Below are positions 39,233 to 56,987 of a stretch of DNA of 64,000 nucleotides, in pieces. The notes under the pieces are model-generated. The model was not told where the DNA came from. It searched no databases and saw nothing but the letters and a program-made list of their open reading frames with translations. Each line of letters begins with the position of its first letter. The stretch's first letter is position 1. The position numbers and the translations under genes were made by a program. Source of the stretch: an uncultured Methanosarcinales archaeon (lineage in GTDB: Archaea > Nanobdellota > Nanobdellia > Woesearchaeales > UBA583); assembly GCA_964621065.1 (NCBI GenBank), contig CAZULG010000005.1:108-64107 (forward strand), in the 5' to 3' direction.

Positions 39233-39454
39233 TTAAGAATACGAAGTATTTACAACTTCACAAATCATCAATCTATCGAACTCTTTCTCTTTATGATTAG
39301 AGTTTAAATACATTTTCTGAAGTGCTTCTTCTTTTGATTCAGCTTCAATTGTATCAACTAACACTGCGTCTTGAGTTGGTTCAAACTCTCCTTTTTTAGT
39401 TTTAAATTCTGTGTAGCAAGCTCTTCCAATTTCTAATATCATAAATCGTTTCAT
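39233..39454 (-). CDS. Small hypothetical protein co-transcribed with the DpnI-like gene
   Basis: 73-aa ORF that overlaps the upstream gene's stop by 4 nt. Confidence 0.4.
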   Translation of the reverse strand: MKRFMILEIGRACYTEFKTKKGEFEPTQDAVLVDTIEAESKEEALQKMYLNSNHKEKEFDRLMICEVVNTSYS

Positions 39455-40221
39455 TGTATTAACTTATACACACCTCTCTTTTTAAACTCTAATATTTTAT
39501 TATCTCTTAAAACTTGAAGTTGTTGTCTAATTTTTGCTTGAATATTGTTATTTAGTGGGTGTAATTCTTTAAAATAACCTTCAAATTTGTAAATATCATT
39601 AAGAGTAAATTCATCTCCAATATCTTGAACAACTTTCAAAACATCTGATGTCCATCCTCTCAACTCAGGTTTCTTATTTGCAAGAAAGAACATTTTTCTC
39701 CATTGTGAATTTACTTTTTCTTTTTCAATGATTTCTTCATTTTTAATAATTTTAATTTTTCCTTCTTGTGGTAATTTATCAAGTAAAAAATTACAACCAA
39801 CCCAACCCGCTCTTCTTGCTGTTTGTGAGAGAGGTTTTCTTTTCTCAATCATTGAGTGAGTTACAAAAAATTTTGGAATCATGTTTAATGATTTTACTCT
39901 CCAATCATCACTTGAATAATGCATAATGAAAAAATTTGGAGATTTCTTTTCATCTATAATTTTTTTCATTGTGTTATATTCTCCATCAACTACTTTTCTA
40001 GCAAATGGTTTTTTTGAACTTTTAAGTTGAAAATCATTTCCACAATTTAGACAATAAAAATCATATCCTTTTTTATTATGCTCATAAGTAGAAACTGATT
40101 TACTTAAGCAACACGGGCAATACATCTCATTTGAAAACCAATTTTCAGTGAGTACTCGTGCAATTTGAGAATTATTCGTATAAGAATTAAATACATCTTT
40201 TTGATACATTGATACATCCAT
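39451..40221 (-). CDS. DpnI-family methyl-directed (type IIM) restriction endonuclease-like protein
   Basis: From memory of R.DpnI: NSQIARVLTENW...YCPCC..., DFYCLNCGNDFQLKS, RKPLSQTARRAGWVGCN, RGWTSDVL, FTLNDIYKFE and IRQQLQVLRDNKILEFKKRGVYK parallel DpnI along its whole ~255-aa length (catalytic domain plus winged-helix domain). Confidence 0.75.
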   Translation of the reverse strand: MDVSMYQKDVFNSYTNNSQIARVLTENWFSNEMYCPCCLSKSVSTYEHNKKGYDFYCLNCGNDFQLKSSKKPFARKVVDGEYNTMKKIIDEKKSPNFFIMHYSSDDWRVKSLNMIPKFFVTHSMIEKRKPLSQTARRAGWVGCNFLLDKLPQEGKIKIIKNEEIIEKEKVNSQWRKMFFLANKKPELRGWTSDVLKVVQDIGDEFTLNDIYKFEGYFKELHPLNNNIQAKIRQQLQVLRDNKILEFKKRGVYKLIQ

Positions 40222-42275: not shown

Positions 42276-44020
42276 TTGTTATTACCTCCCATAAAATCTT
42301 TCACTTCTTGATATACTTCCTCAAAGAAAAATGGACGAGCGTCATATCGAAGTCTTTTCTCTTGAATATTTAAACTTGTATTCATTCTAATTAACGAATG
42401 CAATTGTGCTCCAATATTTCCTTCAAATAACATTACTTTGTTTTTCTCAACATCATCTTTGAGTAACTCTTCAACAAATTCCCAATCGCACGGATTGAGA
42501 TATAAAAAATGAATCTGCCTAACTTTTACTCCATCTTCTTCTAGATATTTTCTTGCTTCTTGTAAAATCATTTTATTTGAACCCCAAGACACAAGTGTAA
42601 TATCATAATCTTGAGTTGAACCTAACACTTTTGGACGAGTTCTCTCTTTAGGTATGTTTTGAAGTTTTCTATTTCGCTTCTCCATTTGAAGTCTATGCAT
42701 ATCTCCATCTTCACTCGTCCATCCAGTCTCATCATGTTCATATGAAGAATTTACATGACACGCTCCTTTTTGCCCAATGACTACACGCTGTGAAATTCCA
42801 CTCTCTGTTAACTCATACCTCTTATAATTTTCCATCTCAATATTCTCATCAAAAGGTTGATAATACCCTCTATCAATTTTCAAATTAGATGTATCAAATC
42901 GTTTAGTCATACTTTGTGAATTTGAAATATGTTTATCTAACAATACAATCACAGGAGTTTGCACCAAATCTGCAACATTAAACGCTTCAAAACTCTCATA
43001 AAAACACTCATCTAAATCCCCTGGAGCTAAGACAACTTTTGGAAATTCTCCAGAACCTGAATACAACACATGCATCAAATCCCCTTGATCTGTATATGTT
43101 GGAAGCCCAGTTGAAGGCCCTGCTCGTTGGCACTCAAACATTACTAAAGGGTTTTCAGACATTCCTGCAAATGAAATTGCTTCATTCATCAACGCATATC
43201 CTCCTCCTGATGTTGCACCCATTGCACGAGCTCCTGCAGCTGATGCTCCAATAATATTATTAATCGCAGCAATTTCATCTTCTGCGTGCTTTGTTGTAAT
43301 GTTGTGCGTAATTTCTTTTGCAGCAAAAAATGATAAAAATGAAGATGAAGGAGTCATTGGATACTCACTCACAAACTTTACTCCTGCTTTCAATGCTCCC
43401 AAAGCAGCTGCATCATTTCCACTCATCATAATCATATTTTGAGTAATTTCTTGTTTAAAAATTCTATTCAATCGTTTATGGGAAAAATGCTCAACGATAT
43501 AATCAAAGCCTCTTTGAGCAACTGTAATATTACTCTCAATTAATTCTTTAGATTTTTTTGCAAAGTGTTTTTGAAGAACTTGTGAGAGCATTGAGTTATC
43601 TTCACACATCAGCGCAACTGCTGATCCAAATAATAACGTGTTTTTAAATCGCTTCCCTTCTTCTTTAATTAACTCATCAATAGGTATTGAGACAATATAC
43701 TCATCCACATGCTCCCATTTTTCTAATAATTTTGAATCTGTTAAGACTATTCCGTTATGATTTCTTGAAGGAATATCTTCTTGCAGAGCTAATTGATCCA
43801 GACAAATCACAATATCGTGAAATTTTACTTCTGCACTCACAATTTCATCTTCTGCTCGAATTGAACACGTGTTATGTCCTCCTTTAATTAGAGATGGATA
43901 ATCTGTAGTGTACATCACGTGCAGACCATTCATCTTAAAAAATTTAGAAATTAAGAGTCCAATTGTAAATACTCCTTCACCAGCTGGACCTCCTGCTTTT
44001 AACGAAATTTTATTTTGCAT
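42272..44020 (-). CDS. korA: 2-oxoacid:ferredoxin oxidoreductase, fused gamma-alpha subunit
   Basis: N-terminal gamma-like ISLKAGGPAGEGVFTIG, then alpha-like GNDAAALGALKAGVKFVSEYPMTPSS. Confidence 0.85.
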   Translation of the reverse strand: MQNKISLKAGGPAGEGVFTIGLLISKFFKMNGLHVMYTTDYPSLIKGGHNTCSIRAEDEIVSAEVKFHDIVICLDQLALQEDIPSRNHNGIVLTDSKLLEKWEHVDEYIVSIPIDELIKEEGKRFKNTLLFGSAVALMCEDNSMLSQVLQKHFAKKSKELIESNITVAQRGFDYIVEHFSHKRLNRIFKQEITQNMIMMSGNDAAALGALKAGVKFVSEYPMTPSSSFLSFFAAKEITHNITTKHAEDEIAAINNIIGASAAGARAMGATSGGGYALMNEAISFAGMSENPLVMFECQRAGPSTGLPTYTDQGDLMHVLYSGSGEFPKVVLAPGDLDECFYESFEAFNVADLVQTPVIVLLDKHISNSQSMTKRFDTSNLKIDRGYYQPFDENIEMENYKRYELTESGISQRVVIGQKGACHVNSSYEHDETGWTSEDGDMHRLQMEKRNRKLQNIPKERTRPKVLGSTQDYDITLVSWGSNKMILQEARKYLEEDGVKVRQIHFLYLNPCDWEFVEELLKDDVEKNKVMLFEGNIGAQLHSLIRMNTSLNIQEKRLRYDARPFFFEEVYQEVKDFMGGNNK

Positions 44021-44124
44021 AATTAATATGAGTTATTTTAGTATAAATGAATTTATCACTTCTTTAAAATGGAGAAAGACATATGTGTGAATAATTAGAT
44101 TAAAAATAATAATAATTTTTTAAC

Positions 44125-44153
44125 AAAAGGGGATAGGCAATTTGCCACCCCCT
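44125..44153 (-). terminator. GC-rich hairpin plus T-tract immediately after the leader-distal repeat (candidate pre-crRNA terminator)
   Basis: The minus strand reads GGGGGTGGCAAATTGCCTATCCCCTTTTGTT. The stem is GGGG/GGCA paired with TGCC/CCCC, followed by an oligo-T run. It is the only GC-rich patch in this spacer. Confidence 0.45.
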
Positions 44154-46282
44154 ATCTACAATAGTAGAAATTTTTTAATTTCTTAAATAATTGAGCTTTA
44201 AGATGGTTATATTGTTTCATCTACAATAGTAGAAATTTTTTAATTTTCTTAAATGCAAATACTGAACTTGAGAATAATATTAAGATCTACAATAGTAGAA
44301 ATTTTTTAATTTTCTTAAATTTTCTTCCTTAATCTCTCTAAGGAGCTTATCTACAATAGTAGAAATTTTTTAATTTTCTTAAATGATTTATAGCAACAAT
44401 TCAAAAATCACAACATCTACAATAGTAGAAATTTTTTAATTTTCTTAAATTGTTGAAGGTTATGAATTTGAAGAAATAGATCTACAATAGTAGAAATTTT
44501 TTAATTTTCTTAAATTCCACGAACATTATTTAAGAGATTTAAATCTACAATAGTAGAAATTTTTTAATTTTCTTAAATGAATAGAAGAGGTAACTAAAGA
44601 TGATAGAATCTACAATAGTAGAAATTTTTTAATTTTCTTAAATGCTAATGATTATAAAAATTTAATTCTCTCATATCTACAATAGTAGAAATTTTTTAAT
44701 TTTCTTAAATATTATGCAGTAGAGTTGAAAAAAAATTATCATCTACAATAGTAGAAATTTTTTAATTTTCTTAAATTTGGATTAGAAACTTATCGTATTA
44801 ATACATCTACAATAGTAGAAATTTTTTAATTTTCTTAAATTATTTGTGTAGGAGGATTATAACTCTCTTATCTACAATAGTAGAAATTTTTTAATTTTCT
44901 TAAATATTCTTCATCCTTTAAATTCTTTGATCAAGATCTACAATAGTAGAAATTTTTTAATTTTCTTAAATTAAATATTGAAATATTAGTAATAGTAGAA
45001 GATCTACAATAGTAGAAATTTTTTAATTTTCTTAAATCAAATACTTTGAGATTGGCAGAGATTTTTAATCTACAATAGTAGAAATTTTTTAATTTTCTTA
45101 AATTTGATGATTGTTGTGTTTGAGAATTTACATTATCTACAATAGTAGAAATTTTTTAATTTTCTTAAATTTTGAGTATTTTGAAGCTTACAAGCTATCT
45201 ACAATAGTAGAAATTTTTTAATTTTCTTAAATCTTGTACTGCACTTTGTGCAACTTCTCCAGATCTACAATAGTAGAAATTTTTTAATTTTCTTAAATAG
45301 CAATTGTTAATTTATGCCAATTCCCATATCTACAATAGTAGAAATTTTTTAATTTTCTTAAATCAACAGATAAAATCATTGTTAATATTATCAATCTACA
45401 ATAGTAGAAATTTTTTAATTTTCTTAAATGAGGAGGTTCATTTTATGCATCCCTCCTATCTACAATAGTAGAAATTTTTTAATTTTCTTAAATTTTAGTG
45501 GGTAATGGAGACATTGAATTATTAGAATCTACAATAGTAGAAATTTTTTAATTTTCTTAAATAATAAGTTATCAAAAAAACGCAACATTTAATCTACAAT
45601 AGTAGAAATTTTTTAATTTTCTTAAATATGTAAGTGAAGGACAAGAAGTAAATCAAATCTACAATAGTAGAAATTTTTTAATTTTCTTAAATTTCAACAG
45701 TTGATTCACTATCCCCGTAATATCTACAATAGTAGAAATTTTTTAATTTTCTTAAATGATATTAGGAATGATATTTGTGATATTATTATCTACAATAGTA
45801 GAAATTTTTTAATTTTCTTAAATTGATTGCGATTCCTTCACTACCACCTTTGATCTACAATAGTAGAAATTTTTTAATTTTCTTAAATTAGAACAGTAGA
45901 GCCATCTAATTTTCTTCTATCTACAATAGTAGAAATTTTTTAATTTTCTTAAATAAAATTAGGAATACCTGAGCGAGGATTTCATCTACAATAGTAGAAA
46001 TTTTTTAATTTTCTTAAATTCGTGTGAAGTTTTCGCGTCCAAATCAATTTTATCTACAATAGTAGAAATTTTTTAATTTTCTTAAATAACCATACGGTTT
46101 TAGGTATGGTATACTATCTACAATAGTAGAAATTTTTTAATTTTCTTAAATTTTATTGAGAGATAGAATTGATGAAGATATATCTACAATAGTAGAAATT
46201 TTTTAATTTTCTTAAATTGCCATAAGTCTTATATGCCACACATATAATCTACAATAGTAGAAATTTTTTAATTTTCTTAAAT
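44154..46282 (-). CRISPR. CRISPR array, 33 repeats (36 nt) and 32 spacers (26-33 nt), Cas12a-type repeat
   Basis: The plus-strand unit atctacaatagtagaaattttttaattttcttaaat reads ATTTAAGAAAATTAAAAAATTTCTACTATTGTAGAT on the minus strand, ending in the Cas12a handle stem-loop UCUAC-UAUU-GUAGA-U. My hand count of repeat plus spacer lengths sums exactly to 2129 nt. The distal repeat (44154-44188) is 35 nt, with one T lost. Confidence 0.97.
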
Positions 46283-46514
46283 AGGTCGATTTTAATTAGG
46301 TTTTTCTAAATATAAGGTATTATGCTATTTAAAGAGCTCTTTTATCATTTTAGAAAAATCTCTAAAACTCATTTTGCCTAGTTAAGATATTAATTTTAAA
46401 TTATAATAATATTTAAATATTTGCCTTAAAAGTACTAGAAACTAATAAAAATGATGTTTTTATATTCAGATACAATAAAAATAAAGACTAAGGTTTGCAA
46501 CTTTTGAAAATGAA
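46283..46514 (-). promoter_or_regulatory. CRISPR leader (232 nt, AT-rich) with TATA-like box ~25 nt upstream of first repeat
   Basis: It lies between the cas2 stop and the first repeat. The minus strand reads CCTTATATTTAG at 46306-46317. The degenerate repeat sits at the opposite end of the array, which supports this polarity. Confidence 0.6.
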
Positions 46515-46787
46515 TTAAAACATAACTAAATCCTCCTCCTCATTTTTAGCATATCCATATCTATGAATTTGACAACTTCCACTTAATTCAAAAATCATCA
46601 CACTATCACTTTGTGTAAATTTCTTCTCAAATTTAGATTTGATTTCACTTTTAACAATTTCAAGTAATCTCTTACTATTATTAATCTCATACACCGAGTA
46701 TTGTAATCTTCTTCCATATTCTAAAATAAATTTAGAAAATTGAGTTCTGAGTTTATCATCTTTAATATCATATGTTAAAATAATCAT
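46515..46787 (-). CDS. cas2: CRISPR-associated endoribonuclease Cas2
   Basis: MIILTYDIKDDKLRTQFSKFILEYGRRLQYSVYE is a typical Cas2 N-terminus. Length 90 aa, with a 4-nt overlap with cas1. Confidence 0.9.
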   Translation of the reverse strand: MIILTYDIKDDKLRTQFSKFILEYGRRLQYSVYEINNSKRLLEIVKSEIKSKFEKKFTQSDSVMIFELSGSCQIHRYGYAKNEEEDLVMF

Positions 46788-47758
46788 TTTTTTCCCTCCA
46801 AAGTAAATTTTGAATACTGAGAAATATCATTTTCTTTAATGAAATTTCTATAGTATGATTGAATAAATACAAATATCTCCTCTTTAAAACTTAAAATCTC
46901 TTTTAAGAAAAATTGAGAATACTTTTTATTATATTCCTTCTTAATGAAATATTGACCATTTTTCTCATAAAAGTCATTTCTATCAATTTGTTTTAAATTA
47001 AATCCTTTTCTAATTTTTCTATCAATAATACATCTAAACGGTTCAATAATATCACAAACTAACGATTTACGTTGATAAAATAATGTGTGATGAACTCCAT
47101 AATACGTATCAAATCCATATAATTCTAAATTTGCTTCAATAAAATTAAATAAATAATGATAACCAATATCTAAAAGTAAATTGAAAATATCCTCTTTTGC
47201 TCGTGGTCTTCTTCCTTTAAAATCCAAATTTTTAAAATACACTTTGAAAAATAACTTTGAAGCATTTCCTTCAATTCCTAACATCTCCTGATTAGAAGAA
47301 CAACTATTAATTTGAGAAATTAAAAATTTCATTTTATCAATATGTAATTTCTCCTGAGTTGTTTTATAACGCAGAGATTTCATTAAATATAATTGATTTT
47401 CAACTTTATTTGAAATTAAAAATTTAGAAATTTCTAATTTATTAACATCCAAATACTGCTTTTTTCTCAATAAAAAATTTCCTTTATTTTCAGGAATAAC
47501 ACTATAATACATTTTCAAATTAAAATTTAAAAAGATAATTGGAAAAGAAAATCTCTTAGCTTGTTTAATCAATACAGAAGTAATTGAAAACTCTCCATAA
47601 ATAAACACTAAAAATATTTTATGACAAGAATGCTGTAAAATCGTTTTATTATTCTCATCAACTACAACTAAATTAGAATTTCTAAATTTAATTTTCTTTG
47701 AAGAATCACTATCAATAAATAATAGTTGTTTTGACATAAAATCAGGTCTTGACATCAT
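46784..47758 (-). CDS. cas1: CRISPR-associated integrase Cas1
   Basis: GIEGNASKLFF, NLLLDIGYHYL and GVHHT...LVCDIIEPFR are the conserved Cas1 E, N..L..GY and H...D/E boxes. Length 324 aa. Confidence 0.9.
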   Translation of the reverse strand: MMSRPDFMSKQLLFIDSDSSKKIKFRNSNLVVVDENNKTILQHSCHKIFLVFIYGEFSITSVLIKQAKRFSFPIIFLNFNLKMYYSVIPENKGNFLLRKKQYLDVNKLEISKFLISNKVENQLYLMKSLRYKTTQEKLHIDKMKFLISQINSCSSNQEMLGIEGNASKLFFKVYFKNLDFKGRRPRAKEDIFNLLLDIGYHYLFNFIEANLELYGFDTYYGVHHTLFYQRKSLVCDIIEPFRCIIDRKIRKGFNLKQIDRNDFYEKNGQYFIKKEYNKKYSQFFLKEILSFKEEIFVFIQSYYRNFIKENDISQYSKFTLEGKK

Positions 47759-48309
47759 TTTTTATAATAATCACACAATTCCTTGTAAATACACATTTCA
47801 CATTTTTTAGGATTTTGAGAAAATAAGGTGTCAAATAAATCAAAACTTCTCATTTGTGAAATAACTTCTTTCAATCGTCTTTTATTCTCATCAGTTGGTA
47901 AATCAATTGAAATTTTAGAATTATTTTTCATAGAATAAAAACTCAATTTCTCAACCTCATAACCCATTTCAATTAAACAAAAATATTGACTCCAAATTTG
48001 TAAATAATATCCTTCATAAATAGTTTTAATAACATTCTTTCTCTCAATGAGTTCTTTATTATCTAAATCTAATAAATCAATTTTTCCAATAACTCCTAAC
48101 TCTTCACTATAAATATCAATTCCTTGTAATATATTCTTTTTTGATGAATATGTTTGAGTATCTACATTCTTATGAGCATCTTTTCCTTTTTGTTGATATG
48201 TTGAGTGAAATACTTTTTCATCAAATTGATAATACAAATTATGAAAATAAATTGAACGAGGACAGAAAATAAAGTCATTTAAATTAGAGATAATGATATT
48301 TTCCTCCAT
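47755..48309 (-). CDS. cas4: CRISPR-associated exonuclease Cas4
   Basis: N-terminal Cys (FIFCPRSIYF) plus a C-terminal CEMCIYKELC four-Cys cluster. RecB-type IDLLDL...ELIERK and YLQIWSQY (QxxxY) motifs. Confidence 0.9.
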   Translation of the reverse strand: MEENIIISNLNDFIFCPRSIYFHNLYYQFDEKVFHSTYQQKGKDAHKNVDTQTYSSKKNILQGIDIYSEELGVIGKIDLLDLDNKELIERKNVIKTIYEGYYLQIWSQYFCLIEMGYEVEKLSFYSMKNNSKISIDLPTDENKRRLKEVISQMRSFDLFDTLFSQNPKKCEMCIYKELCDYYKK

Positions 48310-48311
48310 TT

Positions 48312-51300
48312 TTATTTTTTTAAATAATTGAGATTTCTAAATGTTTTAATTCCAATTTGATATGCTCCATTATTATCACCAGTTTCAATAAAATTAATAT
48401 TTTTTAATTTTAGACTATGTTTTATAGTGGAATCATTTGTAGAATCATAACCACACTCATTACAGATTAATTTATCTCCGTTTTTAAAAAGTCTTTTAGT
48501 TTTCAAACTATCACAATTGGGACATTTCTTAGATGTATAACTAGGATCCACAAAAAAAATTCTTCCAAATTGTTTATATTGTAAATCTGCTTTTTCAATT
48601 CCAATATTTTCATAATTTTCAACACTTCTAAAAGGAGGAACTAAATGCAATATTTCACTATTCTTATTTGGAATTTTAAATAATTTTTTTAACAATTGCA
48701 TTTCAAAATAATGATAAGTTCCAAGACCTGCTAATTTTGCATTTGCAACTTTCTTATAATCAACATCACTTTCTTTTGAATTATCTTTATAACTTTTTTC
48801 TAGTATAATCCCATTTAAGCCATCAATATAGCTTACCCAACATTTTGATAAATTTTCAACAGAAATATAAATATTGTAGTTATACTTTTCAATAAAATAA
48901 TTAATTACACCTATCATATTTGCAGTAATACCTTTTTTTAATCCATCAGCAGAATCTAATTCTATTATACGATTAATTTCTTTTTCTCTATCTTTTTCAG
49001 AAATATTTTCATCAGTCATAACTTCTTTAAAGTTATTTAATAAATCTAAAATTTCTTTATGATTTAAATTTTCATATTTTTCTCCAACTCCAAAAGCAGA
49101 TATTAAAGTACTTTCTTTTAATTTTTTAATTTTTTCACAATCATCATTACTATTTGCAATTCTTAAAATTAAATCTTTATTTTCTTTGTTTTGCATTTGA
49201 TATTGTAATTTTCTTCTATATGCTAGTTGTTTTAATTTAATATTTTGATTATTTTCTTTTAAATTATCTTCTTCAAATCCTTTAAATCTGTCTTTTTTAA
49301 CTTTTATTTTACTTAAATCAACTAATACTTTTTCTCCTTTAATCGTTGTTTCAACTCTTAAATTTGTTAAATCCAAAATATTTCTCTCTTCTAAAAAAAT
49401 ATGCTCCCAAATCTTTTTTTCAGTATCAAAACTTCTTGTGTAAATATAAAAATTTCCTTGTATTTCACCATCTTGATTTAATATACATAAAGTAGCTAAG
49501 CACTTTTCTCCTCTATCAATACCTAAAATGTAAAAAGGTTTATTTTTAATAAAACTGTTTTCATTAAATATTTTAATTTCGTTTATTAAATTTCTTTTTT
49601 TATATAATTCTAAAACCTCTTTCTTTGAGAATCCTTGATTTTGTGGAACTATTTCACATAAAAATTGAGCATTTAATTGAAATCTAGAATATCTTTTACC
49701 ACTAGGATAATTAGGAGTTGAAAATCTATAACTTAAATCAATTTCTGGATGTAGTCTATAATTAAGACTATTTTCATCAAAAATTAAATTCCAATCCTTT
49801 GTAAATTGATTTTTTAAATTTTTTTTTTGAGAGATTAAATTTTGATTTACAATAGGAAAAATAAAACAACCTTTATCTTTAATTAATTCATTTACTTTTT
49901 CTTTTGAGAGATTAAATTTCTTTAAAATATATCCTTTTTTATCAATTTCTTTTTCAATATCTTCATAAAAATTACAATTAGAAAAATTAAAATTAAATTC
50001 ATTCCAATATTGAATTTTTGCCATAGTTGATTCTTGTAAAGAATTTTTTAATATATTTAAAAAATATTTATTTTTTTTAGTTTTGTCCCAATTAATTTTA
50101 ATTTCATTAAAATCATAGTCTAAATTAAATTCTTTATATGCTCCTTTATTTTTAATAATTTTAATTAAGGTTTTAGATGTCAAAGATTTAACATAAAATC
50201 CTTTTAGGTTCCCATTATTTTTTTTAAGTAAATCTTTATATAAAATATCTTTATAATTTTTAGGAATTGTTAATACATATTTATCTTTGTTTTCATCTTC
50301 TATAACTATCCCTAAATCCTCAATTTTATTTATTTCATATCTCTCATTTAGCTTATCTCTTAACTCAGAAAATTTTTTTCCATAATCTTGTGAAAGAGTT
50401 TTAAATATTTGTGTTAATTTTTTATATTCTTTAATATTATTTTTTTGCTCACCTCTTTTAAGACCTAACTTTTGTTTTGCTTTATTATAATCTTTGTATA
50501 AATCAGAATTATTTTCTTTATTATTTATTCTACCCTCATCACTCAAATTAATCCAACTAATAATATTTTTATTTATACTGCCAATATCATCATTTTTATT
50601 AAAAGCAGGAATTTTTTTGTTTTGATTAATCTCAATTTTAAATTCTTTTAACTCATTCAATATTTCTTTAACTTTTTGTTTATATTCTTCTAAGTTTTTA
50701 TTTCTATTTTTGAAATTATTATTATAATCGATATTTTTTAATTGATCTTTTAGATACGAAAGTTTTGAAAATAAAATAAAATTATCATTACTCTTAATAT
50801 TAATCTCAAAGTTAGTTTTTAAAAAATTTTCACATAATTCTCTATCAAAACTTACTTCATAATATTCACTTTTAGCTAAATTCTCCCAAGCATAATCAAA
50901 AGCTAATTTTATAGGGTAATTATTTAAATCAAAAACTTCTTTTTCCTCGTTATATTCTTTTCCAATTTCAATATTTTCTCCAATATTATTTAAAATTGTA
51001 TAAATTTCATCTTGATTTAAATTTAAATCTTGTTTATAATTTTCCTCTAAAAATTTTGAAAGCTCATATTTAACAATCGGTTTTAATGGTTTAGATTTAA
51101 ACAATTGAATTGATTGAATTAAAATATTTAATTTTGCTTTTTCTTCTTTATCATTTTTTTTATAGACTGAATTTTTAAAATGTTCTATTTTTTCATTTTT
51201 ATTTAAAAAAAAATTTCTAATTTCAAATTTATTTTTACTTTTTAAGCTATTTAATAAATCAATTAATTTTAGTTCAGAAATAATATCTTTGATTTCCAAA

Positions 51301-52139
51301 TTATAATTTTCAACCTTTTTCTCTAAAGTATAAGGGTTCAAAGTAATTTTTTTATAAAATGAATTCCCTCCATAATATTTAAATAAATTTTTCAATTCTT
51401 CAATTTGGTTTTCTAATTCAATTCTTAATTCATCATTAACACCAAAGTATTTCCAATTATTTTTTTTATTTTCATATAAAAAGTTCAAATCTAGAAAAGT
51501 TATACTCTTATCATTTAAAGGTTTTAAAATTTCATTTGCTATATTAAATATAGCTAAACTTTTTTTTCTAAAATCAACTAAATTTGGTTTTTGATTTGAT
51601 AAATTATTTTTAAGAGTTAATTCATATTTTTGAATCTCAAATTCCAACTCCTTTTGCAATTTTTGAAAATAAAAAAAATTCTTATTCCAATAATTTGTAA
51701 TTTTATCTTTATTTAATAATGAATTTAAAGAAGTATTATCAGAATAAATTATTCTTACACATTTTTTTTGTTTTTTAGAATATTTTTCCTTTGGAATATC
51801 AAATAAACATTTTCTTCCAAGAATTCTATAATACTCTTTAATTATGAAAAGTTTATCACTTCTTATATAAATATTTCTCCATTCCTTATAAAAAGAATTA
51901 ATTTTAGTTATACAATCTTTAACTTCTATAAGTAATTCTTCTTCATTAAAGTCTTTCTTAGTATATAGACTCTCTTTTAATTTATCATAAGTATTTTTAA
52001 TTTCATTTTCTAACACTTTATGAGTGTAATGTGTTTTTTCTTCATTTCTAATATAATTTTTTTCATAATTTAAAGAAAGTGCAAATCTAATTGTCTTATT
52101 TAAACTATATCTATTTTTCATATAACTATATTCTTCCAT
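48312..52139 (-). CDS. Second, divergent type V effector: Cas12a2-like nuclease (Cas12a paralogue with inserted domain and zinc ribbon)
   Basis: N-terminal YSLNKTIRFAL and processing-like LHPEI...SGKRYSRFQLNAQF. RuvC-I ILGIDRGEK (Asp codon 49515-49517), RuvC-II ISVENLSK (Glu 48855-48857), RuvC-III TGDNNGAYQIG (Asp 48375-48377). The D-to-E spacing is 220 aa, against 90 aa in the neighbouring Cas12a. A CPNC...CNEC zinc ribbon (48453-48524) replaces the Nuc region, and there is no LQ(L/M)RNS motif. Confidence 0.75.
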   Translation of the reverse strand: MEEYSYMKNRYSLNKTIRFALSLNYEKNYIRNEEKTHYTHKVLENEIKNTYDKLKESLYTKKDFNEEELLIEVKDCITKINSFYKEWRNIYIRSDKLFIIKEYYRILGRKCLFDIPKEKYSKKQKKCVRIIYSDNTSLNSLLNKDKITNYWNKNFFYFQKLQKELEFEIQKYELTLKNNLSNQKPNLVDFRKKSLAIFNIANEILKPLNDKSITFLDLNFLYENKKNNWKYFGVNDELRIELENQIEELKNLFKYYGGNSFYKKITLNPYTLEKKVENYNLEIKDIISELKLIDLLNSLKSKNKFEIRNFFLNKNEKIEHFKNSVYKKNDKEEKAKLNILIQSIQLFKSKPLKPIVKYELSKFLEENYKQDLNLNQDEIYTILNNIGENIEIGKEYNEEKEVFDLNNYPIKLAFDYAWENLAKSEYYEVSFDRELCENFLKTNFEINIKSNDNFILFSKLSYLKDQLKNIDYNNNFKNRNKNLEEYKQKVKEILNELKEFKIEINQNKKIPAFNKNDDIGSINKNIISWINLSDEGRINNKENNSDLYKDYNKAKQKLGLKRGEQKNNIKEYKKLTQIFKTLSQDYGKKFSELRDKLNERYEINKIEDLGIVIEDENKDKYVLTIPKNYKDILYKDLLKKNNGNLKGFYVKSLTSKTLIKIIKNKGAYKEFNLDYDFNEIKINWDKTKKNKYFLNILKNSLQESTMAKIQYWNEFNFNFSNCNFYEDIEKEIDKKGYILKKFNLSKEKVNELIKDKGCFIFPIVNQNLISQKKNLKNQFTKDWNLIFDENSLNYRLHPEIDLSYRFSTPNYPSGKRYSRFQLNAQFLCEIVPQNQGFSKKEVLELYKKRNLINEIKIFNENSFIKNKPFYILGIDRGEKCLATLCILNQDGEIQGNFYIYTRSFDTEKKIWEHIFLEERNILDLTNLRVETTIKGEKVLVDLSKIKVKKDRFKGFEEDNLKENNQNIKLKQLAYRRKLQYQMQNKENKDLILRIANSNDDCEKIKKLKESTLISAFGVGEKYENLNHKEILDLLNNFKEVMTDENISEKDREKEINRIIELDSADGLKKGITANMIGVINYFIEKYNYNIYISVENLSKCWVSYIDGLNGIILEKSYKDNSKESDVDYKKVANAKLAGLGTYHYFEMQLLKKLFKIPNKNSEILHLVPPFRSVENYENIGIEKADLQYKQFGRIFFVDPSYTSKKCPNCDSLKTKRLFKNGDKLICNECGYDSTNDSTIKHSLKLKNINFIETGDNNGAYQIGIKTFRNLNYLKK

Positions 52140-52149
52140 TTTTCAATTA

Positions 52150-52992
52150 TTATCTCTTATCTTCTCCCAATTTATTACTTTTAATTTCATCAAAATAATT
52201 CTCTTTTGAAACTACTTTTTGTTTTGTTTCTTTTTCTAATTCAACTCGTGCATTTTTTGCAATAGTTCCACCTTTTTTTGCATCTTTATTTAATTTATCA
52301 AAACCTTTTGAATCATTAACTTGAGTAATTTCAGTAGTTGCTCTCTCACCTAACATTGAAAAAATTAACTCTAAATCACTCATATGATCTCTTAAATTTG
52401 CTTTTGTTTTCAAAGGAAAATTCTTAATCTCTTTATGTTCATTAATTGATACTTCAAATGTTGCTTTATGAATTTCATTAGTTAAAATTGCAAAGTCTTT
52501 TGGTTTTTCAATACCTCTATTTCTCCATTCATCAGTTAATTCTTGTCTAATTGCAATTCCTCTAAGTCGTTTATCAATCCAATCTTTTGGATACCCTTTT
52601 AATTCATAATATTCTTTAACCCTATTTTGAGCAAGTTCTGGATTCTCTATTTCTTCAATTCTCTCTTGCCCTAATTGTGCAAGCCACATTTTAAAAGGTT
52701 CAGCTCTTTTTGAAGGAATTGACTGAATAATTCTAAAAGCACCTTTTGTAGTAGTACAATTCATTTTTTGAACTCCTCCTTTTGTTTCAACTTCAAGGAT
52801 ATGGACAATTTGTCCCCACCCTTCAAATAGTCCTAAATCTCTTTTTTTTAATTTATTAATATAATCCTTTACATTAACACTTTGAGTTATAGCATAGACA
52901 ATATCTTCCACAACATACCACCATTCATCATTAAACCAAGTTCTTCTAATTCGTTTATCTTCAAAAACAATAATTTTATTTTTCTCATCCAT
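52150..52992 (-). CDS. Bro-N domain / DinD-like (phage antirepressor-type) protein embedded between the two effector genes
   Basis: The N-terminal IIVFEDKRIRRTWFNDEWWYVVEDIVYAI... is Bro-N-like. The C-terminal LRDHMSDLELIFSMLGERATTEI...GGTIAKNARVELEKETKQKV parallels E. coli DinD as I recall it. I use the ATG at 52992; the track's TTG at 53013 would overlap the cas12a stop. Confidence 0.65.
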   Translation of the reverse strand: MDEKNKIIVFEDKRIRRTWFNDEWWYVVEDIVYAITQSVNVKDYINKLKKRDLGLFEGWGQIVHILEVETKGGVQKMNCTTTKGAFRIIQSIPSKRAEPFKMWLAQLGQERIEEIENPELAQNRVKEYYELKGYPKDWIDKRLRGIAIRQELTDEWRNRGIEKPKDFAILTNEIHKATFEVSINEHKEIKNFPLKTKANLRDHMSDLELIFSMLGERATTEITQVNDSKGFDKLNKDAKKGGTIAKNARVELEKETKQKVVSKENYFDEIKSNKLGEDKR

Positions 52993-53003
52993 TTTTTTTA
53001 ATA

Positions 53004-56000
53004 TTAACTCCAATTTCTTCTAATCATTTCATTTAAAAATTCATTTCTCTCTATTTTTAAGTCATTAAATTTGATTTTTTCTATATCTTCAAATTCTTTA
53101 ATCTTATTTAATACCATTAAACCTTTAAGTCCAATATGATATGCTCCGTTACAATCAGCATTATCAACTTCTTCTTTATTTGCATTTCTTGAATCAAAGA
53201 AATATCCTTTTTTATTTTTTACACAAGATAAAATATAATCTCCTTCTTTCTCAGTAATTTTATTAATTTTTAATTCATTATCTGTATACGAATTTCTAAG
53301 TTGTAAAATTAATTTCAAATTTTTAATTATATTCTCTAAGAAAAATTTATTTTGTTTTACAATATCATCAATTAAATTTTGAGACTCTTCAATTTTAATA
53401 TTAAAATCATTAAATAATTTTTTTAACTCTTCATTGACATTAACAGATTTTGTTGTCCAATTATTATTTTGATTTTTATCTCTACTTTGAACTAATTTAA
53501 TTCCATTTGAATAAATTTTCCAGTCATCCTTAACTAAATCTTTAACTCCAAAAGAAGAATACTTAAATGAGAACTCAAACAAATCTTCATCTTTTAAATA
53601 TCTTATTGAATCAAATTTGTTGATAAAATCTTTTGCTTGACTCTCATTCTCATACTTAGGATATAATCTATTTACAAATGCAGTTTTTGGACAAATTTTT
53701 GAAGTTAAATAAGGATCAATGTAAAATAAAATACCAGTTTGTTTTCCAATATCTTTTAAAACATTGACTTCGGGTGTTAATTGATATGCTTTTAAATTTC
53801 CTCCTATTTCGTCATTTTTTTTGTCTTTAAATACTAAAAAATTTAATTTAGAAATTAACATTTTCTCAAATTTTTCATATACTTGTTTCTCAACTTTAAA
53901 TCTTCCTCTCTTAAACCCATAATTCAAATCTTCTAATACAATTATTGCATTATTTTCAACTGCAATTTTTGAGATTTTGTGAATAATTTGGGACAAAAAT
54001 CCTTCTTTTAGTTCTTTGATTGTAGAAATATTTTGCCAAGACTTTCTTTTCTCATCTCTTTCTTTTTCAAGTTTAGACAATTTCTGATGATAATTAACTT
54101 TCCTATTAAAAGAATCGTTAATTAAGTTAAATGAACCTTTTTCTTTGATATTTCCTTTTGTATCAAGCAATGTATAATACAGTAAATGCCTTTCTCCTCT
54201 ATCCAAACTTAAAATATTAATATTTTTAGAATTTTGTTTAATCACTTTATTAACTTCATTATTAATTCTAACTCTTGAATTTGATTTGAAGTTTAATGTT
54301 ATTGGAACATGAAATAAAACTTTATCTTGAGTATACCTTTTATTTTTACCAATATCGTAAGAAAATAAACTTTCTTCTTTTCCATTAATAGGATCTTTAT
54401 TTTTTGTTGGTAAATTTTTTGGATGAGTTGGTTTATATTCTATTGATTTCTCCCTATAGAAAATTTCAGCCTGTCCATTTAATTTAAATACAACATCCTC
54501 TAAATTTTCTTCAGAAAATAACTCTTCAAAATACATCGTATGAAGATTTTTCTTAGAATTATAATTCTCTTTTTTAATTTTATTTTGAGAAAAATCTTTG
54601 TTATAGATTTGAAATAAGTATAATTTATTCTCTTCAACAAGTTGCTTAATATATTCTTCATTAATTTTTTTGAAATTTAATTGATAACAAGAACTCTCTA
54701 CATCAAAATAAAATTGTGAAATATCTTCATACTCTCTTGATTCTTTCCAATTAAATTTAAAATGTTTATAAGATTCGTGCCTTTGAAATCCAAGTTTAAA
54801 ATAATCAATTAGTTTTACTAAAGATTCTTTGAATTTAGAAAAATTTGTTTTTCTAAATTCTGTTTTAAAATAACCTTTATCATAAATTTCAATTATTTCT
54901 TGAACTGGCAGATTATACTTTTCAACATTTGGTGAAAAATTATCTCCTTTTGATCTAATAAAAAGTCTAGGAATATTTTTATTATCTGGTTTCTGAAAAT
55001 CATAATTGAGGATTTCAAAATTCCCTTTATTGACTGAAAAATCATTTTCATTATTTTCAATTTTCTTAGGAGAGATTGCAATATAATAATTGGTTTTGTT
55101 ATTTATTTTCTTTTTTAAAATTACAGCAGATTTAGTTTCAAAATTTGAATCCCAACCATTTAAAAAACTACTAGATTGAAAATTTAATTTAAATTTTTGA
55201 GTTGAAAAAGGTTTTTGAGAAATATAGTTTCTAACTTTATTATATAGGGGAGTAATTTGAGATATTAAATTTAATAACTCATCATATATCTGATAAAAAT
55301 GTTCATCCCTATACTCATTTTCAAATTTTAATAGTTTCACAAAATGATAATAGTTTTGAAGAGCATCTAAGAATTCTTTAATTACGTTGACAACTTCATT
55401 ATATTTATCTTGAGTTAATTTTTTTTGACTCTCATTTTTAAATTCTTCAAATTTAATTGAATTAAAAGACTTATATGAATCTTCAATATTTTTTAATAAA
55501 TCTATTGATTTATGTTCAACTGAAAACTTAAAATCCTTAAAAAAATCAAATAATGTAATAATTTCATCAGAATCATCTCTTGTTTCTTTAATTCTTGAAA
55601 TTGAGTTTTGAATTTCTTTAAAACAAAAATAATCAGTTTTCAGATATTTCTCAATTTCCTCTTGTTGTTTTTTATTTAACTTCTCAATATCATAATTTCT
55701 TGATTTAATATACTCTCTTTTCAAATCTTCTTTAATTACATTATAATCTCCAAAAATATTTTGAGAAATATCAGAAATAAACTTTCCATTTTTAATTTTT
55801 ATTAGACTTAAATCAAAGTTTTCAGAGTCCAAGTTTTCAAATAGATTGGAAAATTCATCAAATTGATTTTTAGAATTTAAATTATTATAAAATTCATCAA
55901 TTTTTGTTAAAACTTCATAATCTGAATTGAATTTATCAAATGTGAATAAACTTTCTTTATCACTTAAAATTTGATTAAATAAAACTTGTAATTTTGATTT

Positions 56001-56876
56001 TTTCAAAATTTTAATTTGCTCTCTAGTCAAATCCTTATCTCTTTGAATTAACTCATTAATTCTAGAATTAATTTTCCCAATTATCCTTTTATTATATTTT
56101 TCAATTCCACTTTGATTTAAAAATAAATTATAATTTTGTATTGATAAAAATTCAAGTAAAGTTAGACCTTCTAATTCATCTTTCAATTCAACTTGTAACT
56201 CTCCAAATTTATCATTTGAAACCTCTAATATTTTTTTGAATTTATCATAATTTGCTAAGTATTTAGGCAAATTATCATCAACAATTCTGTAAAATATTGA
56301 AGTTGGTATATTATTCTCACTAAACACATTTTCTCTATTTGAATTAAATCCTGTAAAATAAGTGGTAAATCCTTTAAACTTCTCAACTAATTTTTTATCT
56401 TCAATCCTATTTCTCTTATCTAACCACAAAGGTAGAACTTTTTCATAAAATTCTTTTTTAAAAAATGTTGAGAACTCGTCTTTAAATTTTAATTTAACTA
56501 ACTCCTTCAAATTTTTTCTAAGTTCTTTATTTAATTTATCAAAATTATCTCTTTTATTTTTATTTTGCTTATCTCTAATAAATTCTAAATAAATATTTTC
56601 AAATTCCTCAAGTTTAGTTTTTGATATTTTTGTGAATTTTAAACTTCTCTCAATAAACTCTTTAAAGTACTCATCTGCAATTTTTTTTACTATCTTAAAA
56701 TCTTCATTTCTTTGCTTATCTTCTTCAATTATTTTTTCAATCGAATTCAAGCTTTCATCAATCACCAGTTCTTCTCCATCAAATCCAACTGGTTTTAGCT
56801 CAAAACGTAGTGTTTTACTTAAACTATACTGATTAGTTAGTCCTCCCCAGATATTTTCTGTATTCATTTGTTGCAT
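53004..56876 (-). CDS. cas12a: Type V-A effector Cas12a (Cpf1)
   Basis: N-terminal TNQYSLSKTLRFELKPVG and WED processing motif THPKN...KNKRYTQDKVLFHVPITLNF. RuvC-I LSLDRGERHLLY (Asp 54201-54203), RuvC-II IVLEDLNYGFK (Glu 53931-53933), IDPYLTSK, Nuc motif ILQLRNS, RuvC-III NADCNGAYHIGLKG (Asp 53154-53156). Spacings of 90 and 259 aa are typical of Cas12a. Confidence 0.95.
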   Translation of the reverse strand: MQQMNTENIWGGLTNQYSLSKTLRFELKPVGFDGEELVIDESLNSIEKIIEEDKQRNEDFKIVKKIADEYFKEFIERSLKFTKISKTKLEEFENIYLEFIRDKQNKNKRDNFDKLNKELRKNLKELVKLKFKDEFSTFFKKEFYEKVLPLWLDKRNRIEDKKLVEKFKGFTTYFTGFNSNRENVFSENNIPTSIFYRIVDDNLPKYLANYDKFKKILEVSNDKFGELQVELKDELEGLTLLEFLSIQNYNLFLNQSGIEKYNKRIIGKINSRINELIQRDKDLTREQIKILKKSKLQVLFNQILSDKESLFTFDKFNSDYEVLTKIDEFYNNLNSKNQFDEFSNLFENLDSENFDLSLIKIKNGKFISDISQNIFGDYNVIKEDLKREYIKSRNYDIEKLNKKQQEEIEKYLKTDYFCFKEIQNSISRIKETRDDSDEIITLFDFFKDFKFSVEHKSIDLLKNIEDSYKSFNSIKFEEFKNESQKKLTQDKYNEVVNVIKEFLDALQNYYHFVKLLKFENEYRDEHFYQIYDELLNLISQITPLYNKVRNYISQKPFSTQKFKLNFQSSSFLNGWDSNFETKSAVILKKKINNKTNYYIAISPKKIENNENDFSVNKGNFEILNYDFQKPDNKNIPRLFIRSKGDNFSPNVEKYNLPVQEIIEIYDKGYFKTEFRKTNFSKFKESLVKLIDYFKLGFQRHESYKHFKFNWKESREYEDISQFYFDVESSCYQLNFKKINEEYIKQLVEENKLYLFQIYNKDFSQNKIKKENYNSKKNLHTMYFEELFSEENLEDVVFKLNGQAEIFYREKSIEYKPTHPKNLPTKNKDPINGKEESLFSYDIGKNKRYTQDKVLFHVPITLNFKSNSRVRINNEVNKVIKQNSKNINILSLDRGERHLLYYTLLDTKGNIKEKGSFNLINDSFNRKVNYHQKLSKLEKERDEKRKSWQNISTIKELKEGFLSQIIHKISKIAVENNAIIVLEDLNYGFKRGRFKVEKQVYEKFEKMLISKLNFLVFKDKKNDEIGGNLKAYQLTPEVNVLKDIGKQTGILFYIDPYLTSKICPKTAFVNRLYPKYENESQAKDFINKFDSIRYLKDEDLFEFSFKYSSFGVKDLVKDDWKIYSNGIKLVQSRDKNQNNNWTTKSVNVNEELKKLFNDFNIKIEESQNLIDDIVKQNKFFLENIIKNLKLILQLRNSYTDNELKINKITEKEGDYILSCVKNKKGYFFDSRNANKEEVDNADCNGAYHIGLKGLMVLNKIKEFEDIEKIKFNDLKIERNEFLNEMIRRNWS

Positions 56877-56987
56877 ATTTCATTTATGAAAATTAGCTTT
56901 ATAAATATGTCTCCTGTAATAAGTAGAAAAAAATAAACTTAATAAAAACAAATCTTATAAATTACAATACACTTTATTGATATAGAA
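56877..56987. promoter_or_regulatory. Divergent promoter region with two TATA-like boxes ~22-25 nt from each ATG
   Basis: tttataaata at 56898-56907 lies about 22 nt upstream of the cas12a ATG (56876, minus strand). cttataaatt at 56954-56963 lies about 25 nt upstream of the gatE ATG (56988). No Shine-Dalgarno-like sequence is seen, so the geometry suggests leaderless mRNAs. Confidence 0.4.

What the first reader, a model, noticed from the sequence alone, without database searches (positions are those of the whole stretch)
48312..52139. Second effector has a ~130-aa insertion in place of the bridge helix and a C4 zinc ribbon in place of Nuc
Seen in sequence: I mapped the catalytic residues by hand. 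In the canonical Cas12a (53004-56876), the RuvC-I Asp to RuvC-II Glu spacing is 90 aa and RuvC-II Glu to RuvC-III Asp is 259 aa, with the Nuc hallmark ILQLRNS. In the second protein the same spacings are 220 aa and 160 aa. The segment between RuvC-II and RuvC-III lacks any LQxRNS motif. Instead it contains FFVDPSYTSKKCPNCDSLKTKRLFKNGDKLICNECGY, a CxxC-x16-CxxC ribbon at nt 48453-48524 like those of TnpB and other Cas12 subtypes. As far as I recall, these two differences are exactly what distinguishes Cas12a2 from Cas12a. The extra 130 aa between RuvC-I and RuvC-II (about nt 48900-49450) is K/E/N-rich with no motif I recognise.
Basis: partly seen in the sequence, partly recalled or inferred. 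Interest (0 to 1): 0.85.

Follow-up and report, generated by a model that had tools for sequence, protein, structure and literature searches.

The report
Cas12a2 nuclease beside Cas12a, archaeal
The second large gene is a genuine member of the already characterised Cas12a2 family of CRISPR nucleases, sitting next to an ordinary Cas12a and sharing its CRISPR array; this arrangement is known, and the only new points are the archaeal host and a defence-candidate gene wedged between the two nucleases.

Summary
ORF 48312-52139 (-) encodes 1275 aa. The RuvC residues are D875, E1095 and D1255 (spacings 220 and 160 aa), against 90 and 259 aa in the neighbouring Cas12a. There is no LQxRNS motif. A CxxC-x16-CxxC cluster lies at nt 48453-48524.

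The protein matches only the solved SuCas12a2 structures (8D49/8D4A/8D4B) over its full length, at E 6.7e-225. It groups with published Cas12a2 sequences in 100% of bootstraps and gets no phmmer hit to Cas12a3, Cas12a4 or Cas12a references. It keeps the crRNA-processing K/R pair, all four zinc-ribbon Cys and two of the four aromatic-clamp positions.

The operon reads cas12a, bro-N, cas12a2, cas4, cas1, cas2. It is followed by 33 Cas12a-type repeats.

Cas12a2, its two defining differences from Cas12a, and tandem cas12a/cas12a2 loci sharing one array were all published in 2023. This is therefore a new member of a known kind.

Modest novelties:
- The contig is archaeal (GatE, Kae1, archaeal L10), probably DPANN. 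No archaeal Cas12a2 appears in the ortholog lists I read.
- A full-length PADLOC PDC-S13 (Bro-N) gene is inserted between the two effectors.

No activity was tested.

The parts
48312..52139 (-). cas12a2 gene (1275 aa plus stop)
   Evidence: Intact ORF. Full-length match to SuCas12a2 8D49, E 6.7e-225. Cas12a2 clade at 100% bootstrap.
49515..49517 (-). RuvC-I Asp (D875)
   Evidence: Aligns with SuCas12a2 D848 and is invariant in 10 Cas12a2 sequences.
49692..49697 (-). Predicted pre-crRNA processing pair K815/R816
   Evidence: Aligns with SuCas12a2 K784/R785 (alignment; role in PMC9811890). Invariant in alignment A3.
48954..49451 (-). [quoted passage not shown]
   Evidence: Aligns to Su residues 870-1030, which Bravo 2023 defines as the insertion domain.
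48855..48857 (-). RuvC-II Glu (E1095)
   Evidence: Aligns with Su E1063 and is invariant.
48756..48839 (-). Stretch holding the aromatic-clamp equivalents W1101 (Su Y1069), I1112 (Su Y1080) and Y1128 (Su F1092)
   Evidence: Multiple alignment. Positions 1069 and 1092 are aromatic in most orthologues. Position 1080 is aromatic only in Su.
48435..48563 (-). Zinc-ribbon domain (Pfam PF07282 match aa 1193-1235; Cys 1206, 1209, 1226, 1229 at nt 48453-48524), in place of Nuc
   Evidence: PF07282 scores 27.7 bits against a cut-off of 26.3. The Cys align with Su CPVC/CKEC. Weaker hits to Cas12f/TnpB-type ribbons.
48375..48377 (-). RuvC-III Asp (D1255)
   Evidence: Aligns with Su D1213 and is invariant.
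53004..56876 (-). Canonical cas12a (1290 aa) heading the operon
   Evidence: Pfam RuvC_1, REC1, REC2, PI and NUC domains. PADLOC Cas12a at 1157 bits.
52150..52992 (-). Bro-N / PDC-S13 gene (280 aa) inserted between cas12a and cas12a2
   Evidence: PADLOC PDC-S13 E 3.8e-100 over the full length. phrog_15286 E 2.4e-72. Pfam Bro-N. Absent from five other tandem loci.
47755..48309 (-). cas4
   Evidence: Pfam Cas_Cas4.
46784..47758 (-). cas1
   Evidence: Pfam Cas_Cas1, E 3e-50.
46515..46787 (-). cas2
   Evidence: Pfam CRISPR_Cas2.
46283..46514 (-). AT-rich leader between cas2 and the first repeat
   Evidence: Sequence read. The role as leader is inferred from its position.
44154..46282 (-). Shared CRISPR array: 32 identical 36-nt repeats ATTTAAGAAAATTAAAAAATTTCTACTATTGTAGAT, one terminal repeat with a 1-nt deletion, and 32 spacers of 26-33 nt
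   Evidence: 0 matches expected by chance.

Best explanation
The gene encodes an orthologue of Cas12a2 (type V-A2 effector).

Proposed mechanism, by homology to SuCas12a2:
1. The protein cuts its own guides out of the transcript of the shared array, using K815/R816.
2. It stays auto-inhibited as a crRNA complex.
3. It is switched on when the guide pairs with a complementary RNA, such as an invader transcript, that carries a purine-rich 3' flanking sequence (PFS).
4. The insertion domain relays the rearrangement of the REC lobe to the nuclease lobe, which exposes the RuvC site (D875/E1095/D1255).
5. The RuvC site then degrades non-target ssRNA, ssDNA and probably dsDNA, arresting the infected cell (abortive infection).

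The adjacent Cas12a uses the same crRNAs for PAM-dependent dsDNA cleavage. The pair therefore gives a direct-clearance arm and an abortive back-up arm from one set of spacers.

Shown here: family membership, intact catalytic, zinc-ribbon and crRNA-processing residues, the Cas12a-type repeat, and the operon layout. Inferred: every activity.
For: - The PDB sequence search returns only SuCas12a2 (8D49/8D4A/8D4B), E 6.7e-225, over aa 8-1273.
- Against labelled references from PMC12851939, phmmer hits AbCas12a2 (596 bits), ca34Cas12a2 (569) and Ba3Cas12a2 (559). It gives no hit at E<=10 to Ba1, Ba4, ca28 or ca32 Cas12a3, to ApCas12a4, or to Cas12a.
- Identity is 36-42% to Cas12a2 sequences and 16-22% to the others. 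Functional Cas12a2 orthologues are 37-49% identical to Su (bioRxiv 10.64898/2026.06.23.734040).
- The NJ bipartition 'window protein plus Cas12a2' appears in 300 of 300 bootstraps.
- The RuvC triad, four Cys, K/R processing pair and insertion domain align with the experimentally mapped Su residues (roles).
- Aromatic residues sit at the Su Y1069 and F1092 positions (W1101, Y1128).
- The repeat ends in AAUUUCUACUAUUGUAGAU, the Cas12a/Cas12a2 handle. The same handle is found in arrays beside labelled Cas12a2 genes in L004, L005 and L012.
- The tandem order cas12a, cas12a2, cas4, cas1, cas2 recurs in L004, L006, L008, L009 and L011. It is described in PMC9811890.
- Even with a poor model, Foldseek ranks Cas12a2 structures (E 4e-24) far above Cas12a3 (1e-4) and Cas12a (6e-3).
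Against: - No activity is tested here.
- Four of nine Cas12a2 orthologues assayed in E. coli gave only background DNA-damage signal, so clade membership does not guarantee dsDNase activity.
- The Su Y1080 clamp position is Ile here, and the Y465 position lies in a region that does not align reliably (F500 by phmmer; N514, with F513 adjacent, by MAFFT).
- The AlphaFold model of aa 741-1275 is poor (mean pLDDT 47). The zinc-ribbon fold therefore rests on sequence homology alone.
- No protospacer was found, so targets and the PFS are unknown.
- The nearest relative (L003) carries two in-frame stops, so the gene can decay in this lineage.
Confidence: 0.8

Rival explanations
1. It belongs to the Cas12a2 clade but has narrowed collateral activity. 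RNA-triggered cleavage would be limited to RNA and/or ssDNA, with little or no dsDNA shredding, so growth arrest would come mainly from RNA damage.
For: Four of nine assayed Cas12a2 orthologues gave background DNA-damage signal. Two of the four SuCas12a2 clamp residues are not clearly conserved here: I1112 at the Y1080 position, and the Y465 region is ambiguous. Y465A and Y1080A reduce duplex cleavage in Su while sparing ssRNase and ssDNase activity.
Against: Y1080 is not conserved in any of the nine other Cas12a2 sequences compared. High-activity orthologues also vary at the clamp positions, and only F1092 is conserved among them. The F1092 position is Tyr here, and the Y1069 position is Trp.
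Confidence: 0.14
2. It is a Cas12a3- or Cas12a4-type effector: RNA-activated, RNA-only, for example trimming tRNA CCA tails. Those clades also carry the zinc ribbon and RuvC motifs.
Against: No phmmer hit to any Cas12a3 or Cas12a4 reference. Identity is 18-22%. Cas12a3 forms a separate clade at 99.7% bootstrap. The length of 1275 aa fits Cas12a2 (1201-1402) and not the typical 1010-1220 of Cas12a3/a4. Foldseek E 1e-4 for Cas12a3 against 4e-24 for Cas12a2. Clamp-region aromatics are present, whereas Cas12a3 lacks these regions.
Confidence: 0.02
3. It is a decaying or silent duplicate with no current function, retained only because it sits inside the cas operon.
For: The closest relative (L003) has two in-frame stop codons in its copy. 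A foreign gene is inserted just upstream.
Against: The 1275-codon ORF is uninterrupted, and every mapped functional residue is intact. The identical protein was assembled independently from a second sample, L002. Intergenic gaps of 2-17 nt, with cas1 and cas2 overlapping by 4 nt, indicate co-transcription with the cas genes.
Confidence: 0.03
4. It is an ordinary Cas12a with an expanded bridge-helix/REC element and a chance cysteine cluster.
For: PADLOC's generic Cas12a models match at 267 bits.
Against: No Pfam Cas12a domain (RuvC_1, NUC, REC1, REC2, PI) reaches threshold, while all five are found in the neighbouring gene. Identity to Cas12a is 16-21%. The Cys cluster matches PF07282 above its cut-off and aligns with the essential Cys of SuCas12a2.
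Confidence: 0.01

Closest known systems
SuCas12a2 (Sulfuricurvum sp. PC08-66; PDB 8D49/8D4A/8D4B) and the Cas12a2 / type V-A2 family
   Same: Full-length homology at E 6.7e-225. The Foldseek alignment of the C-terminal 535 aa gives 38-43% identity. [quoted passage not shown]
   Different: Host is archaeal instead of bacterial. Clamp residue Y1080 is Ile, and the Y465 region is divergent. The loop before the F1092-equivalent residue is 4 aa longer. There are 43 more residues overall. No biochemical data exist for this protein.
Tandem cas12a-cas12a2 loci with one shared array (for example AbCas12a/AbCas12a2 of a candidate division SR1 bacterium, or MpCas12a/MpCas12a2)
   Same: Same gene order, cas12a, cas12a2, cas4, cas1, cas2, then the array, all on one strand. 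Also seen in L004, L006, L008, L009 and L011.
   Different: Here a 280-aa Bro-N / PADLOC PDC-S13 gene lies between the two effectors. None of those five loci has it.
Cas12a3 and Cas12a4 (RNA-activated RNA-only effectors; Ba1Cas12a3 PDB 9HM6)
   Same: RuvC motifs, zinc ribbon, Cas12a-like N-terminus and repeat.
   Different: Only 18-22% identity, a separate clade, shorter proteins, and Cas12a3 lacks the aromatic-clamp regions.
Cas12a (Cpf1), including the copy at 53004-56876
   Same: N-terminal YSLSKT(L/I)RF motif, WED/RuvC core, self-processing of the same repeat.
   Different: Cas12a has a bridge helix (90 aa between RuvC-I and RuvC-II) and a Nuc domain with LQxRNS. It targets PAM-flanked dsDNA.

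Membership tests
Cas12a2 (type V-A2 effector) | Falls in the monophyletic Cas12a2 clade, apart from Cas12a, Cas12a3 and Cas12a4 | tested here: met
   NJ tree on 1073 trimmed columns with labelled references: the Cas12a2-plus-window bipartition appears in 300/300 bootstraps. phmmer hits only Cas12a2 references. Caveats: distance tree only, with 3 labelled Cas12a2, 4 Cas12a3 and 1 Cas12a4 reference.
Cas12a2 (type V-A2 effector) | Intact RuvC-I/II/III catalytic triad | tested here: met
   D875, E1095 and D1255 align with Su D848, E1063 and D1213.
Cas12a2 (type V-A2 effector) | [quoted passage not shown] | tested here: met
   220 aa between RuvC-I and RuvC-II, against 90 in the neighbouring Cas12a. 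The segment aligns to Su 870-1030. Tested by sequence only; the structure model is too poor to judge.
Cas12a2 (type V-A2 effector) | Zinc ribbon with four conserved Cys in place of the Nuc domain | tested here: met
   PF07282 above its gathering score. C1206, C1209, C1226 and C1229 align with Su CPVC...CKEC. No Pfam NUC hit and no LQxRNS motif. Metal binding is not testable here.
Cas12a2 (type V-A2 effector) | Basic pair of the pre-crRNA processing site (Su K784/R785) | tested here: met
   K815/R816 in GKRYSRFQ, invariant in six orthologues.
Cas12a2 (type V-A2 effector) | Adjacent CRISPR array whose repeats carry the conserved Cas12a-type 3' handle | tested here: met
   33 repeats ending in TTTCTACTATTGTAGAT, on the same strand as the cas genes.
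Cas12a2 (type V-A2 effector) | Two aromatic clamps (Su Y465/Y1080 and Y1069/F1092) needed for dsDNA collateral cleavage | tested here: inconclusive
   W1101 and Y1128 are aromatic. The Y1080 position is I1112, and the Y465 region is unalignable. The clamp also varies in active orthologues.
Cas12a2 (type V-A2 effector) | PFS-interacting domain that licenses activation by RNA targets | not tested
   The region lies within the full-length alignment to 8D49, but I did not map individual PFS-contacting residues.
Cas12a2 (type V-A2 effector) | [quoted passage not shown] | not testable with these tools
   Requires biochemistry or an interference assay.
Cas12a3 / Cas12a4 | Membership of the Cas12a3 or Cas12a4 clade, without the aromatic-clamp regions | tested here: not met
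   No phmmer hit, 18-22% identity, separate clades, clamp-region aromatics present.
Cas12a (type V-A effector) | Bridge helix plus Nuc domain (Pfam NUC, LQxRNS motif) | tested here: not met
   No Pfam Cas12a domain passes for this protein, and the motif is absent.

The most novel reading that the evidence does not exclude
This is a working dual-effector Cas12a/Cas12a2 system native to a DPANN-type archaeon. That would extend RNA-triggered, DNA-shredding abortive infection to Archaea. In this reading the Bro-N / PDC-S13 gene, packed between the two effectors with 10-11 nt gaps, is a functional third component of the system, such as a regulator or accessory, and not a passenger insertion.
Probability: 0.1. 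Interest if true: 0.6.

Novelty: new member of a known kind. Interest (0 to 1): 0.3.

Why it matters
For CRISPR biology the core finding adds nothing conceptually new. Cas12a2, its domain swaps relative to Cas12a, its structure and its co-occurrence with Cas12a on one array were published in 2023.

Its value is as a data point:
- It is a divergent orthologue (36-42% identical to the other Cas12a2 sequences compared here, and possibly basal among them) on a 97-kb archaeal contig. The published Cas12a2 host lists I read contain only bacteria or unknown hosts.
- It could widen the orthologue panel used for RNA-triggered cell-killing and diagnostic tools.
- It raises the question of what abortive infection means for a small-genome, probably host-dependent, archaeon.
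- The PDC-S13 insertion and the recombination that deleted cas12a in the sister lineage illustrate how these tandem loci are remodelled.

Tried and rejected
1. Structure prediction. The whole protein exceeds the 1200-aa limit. I modelled aa 741-1275 with a 6-sequence alignment and got mean pLDDT 47 and pTM 0.41. The model cannot confirm the zinc-ribbon or insertion fold. The Foldseek TM-scores (0.34-0.37) are uninformative, and only the rank order is quoted.
2. Protospacer hunt. I searched the whole array against 50,697 phage records (only weak AT-rich hits at 82-86% identity). I searched the spacers against the window and all loci (no self-targets beyond chance). I searched two spacer seeds against IMG/VR (none). 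PAM and PFS could not be derived.
3. NCBIfam has no model for this protein. PADLOC files it under generic Cas12a, which is a limit of the library and not evidence for Cas12a.
4. A first bootstrap script timed out. A first residue mapping was wrong because MAFFT --keeplength dropped residues from the Su fragments; it was corrected.
5. A literature search for 'PDC-S13' found nothing.
6. Rfam and tRNA scans of the window found nothing.
7. I rejected the readings 'Cas12a with an expanded bridge helix' and 'Cas12a3/a4' (see rivals).
Full report
**What is in the sequence**

All features lie on the minus strand, in this order:
- cas12a, 53004-56876, 1290 aa
- a Bro-N gene, 52150-52992, 280 aa
- the ORF under review, 48312-52139, 1275 aa
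- cas4, 47755-48309
- cas1, 46784-47758
- cas2, 46515-46787
- a 232-nt AT-rich leader
- a CRISPR array, 44154-46282

In the database gene calls for this contig, gaps between genes are 2-17 nt and cas1 and cas2 overlap by 4 nt. The six genes therefore read as one operon.

The array has 32 identical 36-nt repeats, ATTTAAGAAAATTAAAAAATTTCTACTATTGTAGAT. None is expected by chance. A terminal repeat carries a 1-nt deletion. There are 32 spacers of 26-33 nt. The repeat ends in the Cas12a handle, a UCUAC/GUAGA stem with a 4-nt loop, and it is transcribed in the same direction as the cas genes.

**Check of the observation**

- The second protein has D875 (GIDRGEK), E1095 (SVENLS) and D1255 (GDNNGAY), giving spacings of 220 and 160 aa.
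- The neighbouring Cas12a has D892, E982 and D1241, giving spacings of 90 and 259 aa, with LQLRNS at 1191-1196.
- The second protein has no LQxRNS motif.
- It has C1206, C1209, C1226 and C1229 in CxxC-x16-CxxC, at nt 48453-48524.

Pfam finds all five Cas12a domains (REC1, REC2, PI, RuvC_1, NUC) in the neighbour. In the second protein it finds only PF07282, the Cas12f1/TnpB-type zinc-ribbon (TNB) domain, above its gathering score.

**What it is**

A sequence search of all PDB chains returns a single distinct sequence, SuCas12a2 (8D49/8D4A/8D4B). The E-value is 6.7e-225, and aa 8-1273 align to 6-1231.

In that alignment and in a multiple alignment with nine other Cas12a2 proteins:
- The RuvC triad aligns with Su D848, E1063 and D1213.
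- The four Cys align with Su CPVC...CKEC.
- K815/R816 align with the crRNA-processing residues K784/R785.
- The extra segment, aa 897-1062 (nt 48954-49451), aligns with the Su insertion domain, 870-1030.

The roles of these Su residues are experimental. RuvC, Cys and K784/R785 mutants lose activity (PMC9811890). The insertion domain contacts the crRNA handle and moves on target binding (PMC9849127).

Cas12a3 and Cas12a4, described in 2026, also have the RuvC motifs and the zinc ribbon (PMC12851939).

I took labelled reference sequences from that paper's supplementary FASTA (lengths checked against its table).
- phmmer with the window protein hits AbCas12a2, ca34Cas12a2 and Ba3Cas12a2 at 596, 569 and 559 bits. 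It reports nothing at E<=10 for four Cas12a3, one Cas12a4 and two Cas12a references.
- Identity is 36-42% to Cas12a2 sequences and 16-22% to the others.
- In a neighbour-joining tree on 1073 columns, the split 'window protein plus Cas12a2' occurs in 300 of 300 bootstraps. The Cas12a3 split occurs in 99.7% and the Cas12a split in 100%.
- The position of the window protein within Cas12a2, possibly basal, is unresolved (52%).
- The length of 1275 aa lies in the Cas12a2 range, 1201-1402.

The feature said to separate Cas12a2 functionally is the pair of aromatic clamps.
- W1101 occupies the Y1069 position, which is aromatic in all ten sequences.
- Y1128 occupies the F1092 position.
- The Y1080 position is Ile here and is not aromatic in any orthologue other than Su.
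- The Y465 region does not align reliably. phmmer pairs Y465 with F500, while MAFFT pairs it with N514, next to F513.

This matches a 2026 preprint. There, active orthologues are 37-49% identical to Su, only F1092 is conserved among the clamp residues, and four of nine orthologues show only background DNA-damage activity.

**Structure**

The whole protein is too long for the predictor. A model of aa 741-1275 from six sequences was poor, with mean pLDDT 47. I do not use it to judge folds.

Foldseek with that model still ranks the three Cas12a2 entries first (E 4e-24 to 2e-19, 38-43% identity). They lie well above Cas12a3 (1e-4 to 1e-3) and Cas12a (6e-3 or worse). The same result shows that Cas12a3 structures are in the PDB copy yet were not hit by sequence.

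**Context in other genomes**

- The order cas12a, cas12a2, cas4, cas1, cas2 recurs in Bacteroidia (L004), Leptospiraceae (L006), candidate division SR1 (L008, the published AbCas12a/AbCas12a2 pair), Ignavibacteria (L009) and Bacteroidales (L011).
- Cas12a-type repeat handles flank these loci and Cas12a2-only loci.
- Tandem loci with a shared array, and interchangeable guides, are described in PMC9811890.

**Mechanism proposed**

By homology, the protein processes its own crRNAs from the shared array and is auto-inhibited until the guide pairs with an invader transcript bearing a purine-rich 3' flank. The RuvC site then opens and degrades bystander nucleic acids, arresting the cell.

Cas12a uses the same guides against PAM-flanked dsDNA. 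A TTTV PAM on the non-target strand implies an A-rich 3' flank on a transcript of the target strand. Spacers acquired for Cas12a would therefore also be licensed for Cas12a2. This last point is inference from the published PAM and PFS.

All activities are inferred. Membership and residue conservation are shown.

**Host and side observations**

- The window is part of NCBI contig JBKHCA010000004.1 of assembly GCA_046542085.1. The identical protein was assembled from a second run, SRR11308339.
- The contig is archaeal. GatE scores 602 bits against a cut-off of 456. The contig also has an archaeal-type Kae1, CCA-adding enzyme and ribosomal protein L10, and a family B polymerase.
- The closest relative, at 66% identity, is on a MAG labelled Nanoarchaeota.
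- The published Cas12a2 host table lists only bacteria or unknown hosts. The supplementary files of the 2023 paper never mention archaea.
- The cas island has 20-23% GC against 27-33% in the flanks.
- The gene between the two effectors matches PADLOC's candidate defence family PDC-S13 over its full length (E 3.8e-100) and a phage protein family, phrog_15286. It is absent from the five other tandem loci.
- In the Nanoarchaeota relative (L003), the cas12a2 homologue starts with the promoter region and first ~25 codons of cas12a, joined at the shared KT(L/I)RF motif. This indicates a recombination between the paralogues that removed cas12a. That copy also has two in-frame stop codons.

**Verdict**

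The finding is a new, divergent, archaeal member of an already well-characterised family, in an already described tandem arrangement.

Interest is low to moderate.

Noticed in passing
window 52150-52992 (-): A 280-aa Bro-N protein sits between the cas12a stop and the cas12a2 start, with gaps of 11 and 10 nt. It matches PADLOC candidate defence family PDC-S13 over its full length (E 3.8e-100) and phrog_15286 (E 2.4e-72). It is absent from five other tandem cas12a-cas12a2 loci. It could be a passenger insertion or an accessory gene.
   Followed up: partly
L003 9851-10062 compared with window 56780-56990 and 52040-52160: In the closest relative (a Nanoarchaeota MAG), the cas12a2 homologue carries the upstream region and first ~25 codons of cas12a, fused at the shared KT(L/I)RF motif. 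No cas12a is present. This looks like a deletion by recombination between the two paralogues.
   Followed up: partly
L003 12197-12199 and 12212-12214: The same relative has two in-frame stops (TAA in place of Glu, TGA in place of Gly) inside its cas12a2 homologue. It is either a pseudogene or an assembly error.
   Followed up: partly
window 44001-57000: The CRISPR-cas island has 20-23% GC against 27-33% in the flanking archaeal genes, consistent with horizontal acquisition.
   Followed up: no
window 24730-26682 (-) and 37281-39230 (+): A long RelA/SpoT-family protein (TIGR00691, 562.7 bits against a cut-off of 499.2) and a MutL homologue lie on a contig that is otherwise archaeal (GatE, Kae1, archaeal CCA enzyme and L10). 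From my own general knowledge, both genes are more typical of bacteria.
   Followed up: no
window 39451-40221 (-): A DpnI-like, methyl-directed restriction endonuclease gene (Pfam DpnI and DpnI_C in the database gene call) lies about 4 kb beyond the array. This suggests a small defence neighbourhood.
   Followed up: no
L002 6307-6709: In the second assembly of the same locus (SRR11308339), only one repeat lies between cas2 and the POR gene. This is most likely array collapse in short-read assembly and not a biological difference.
   Followed up: no
window 44110-44153 (-): Directly after the terminal, degenerate repeat comes a G+C-rich inverted repeat (AGGGGGTGGCAAATTGCCTATCCCCT) followed by a T run. 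It may be the transcription stop of the array.
   Followed up: no
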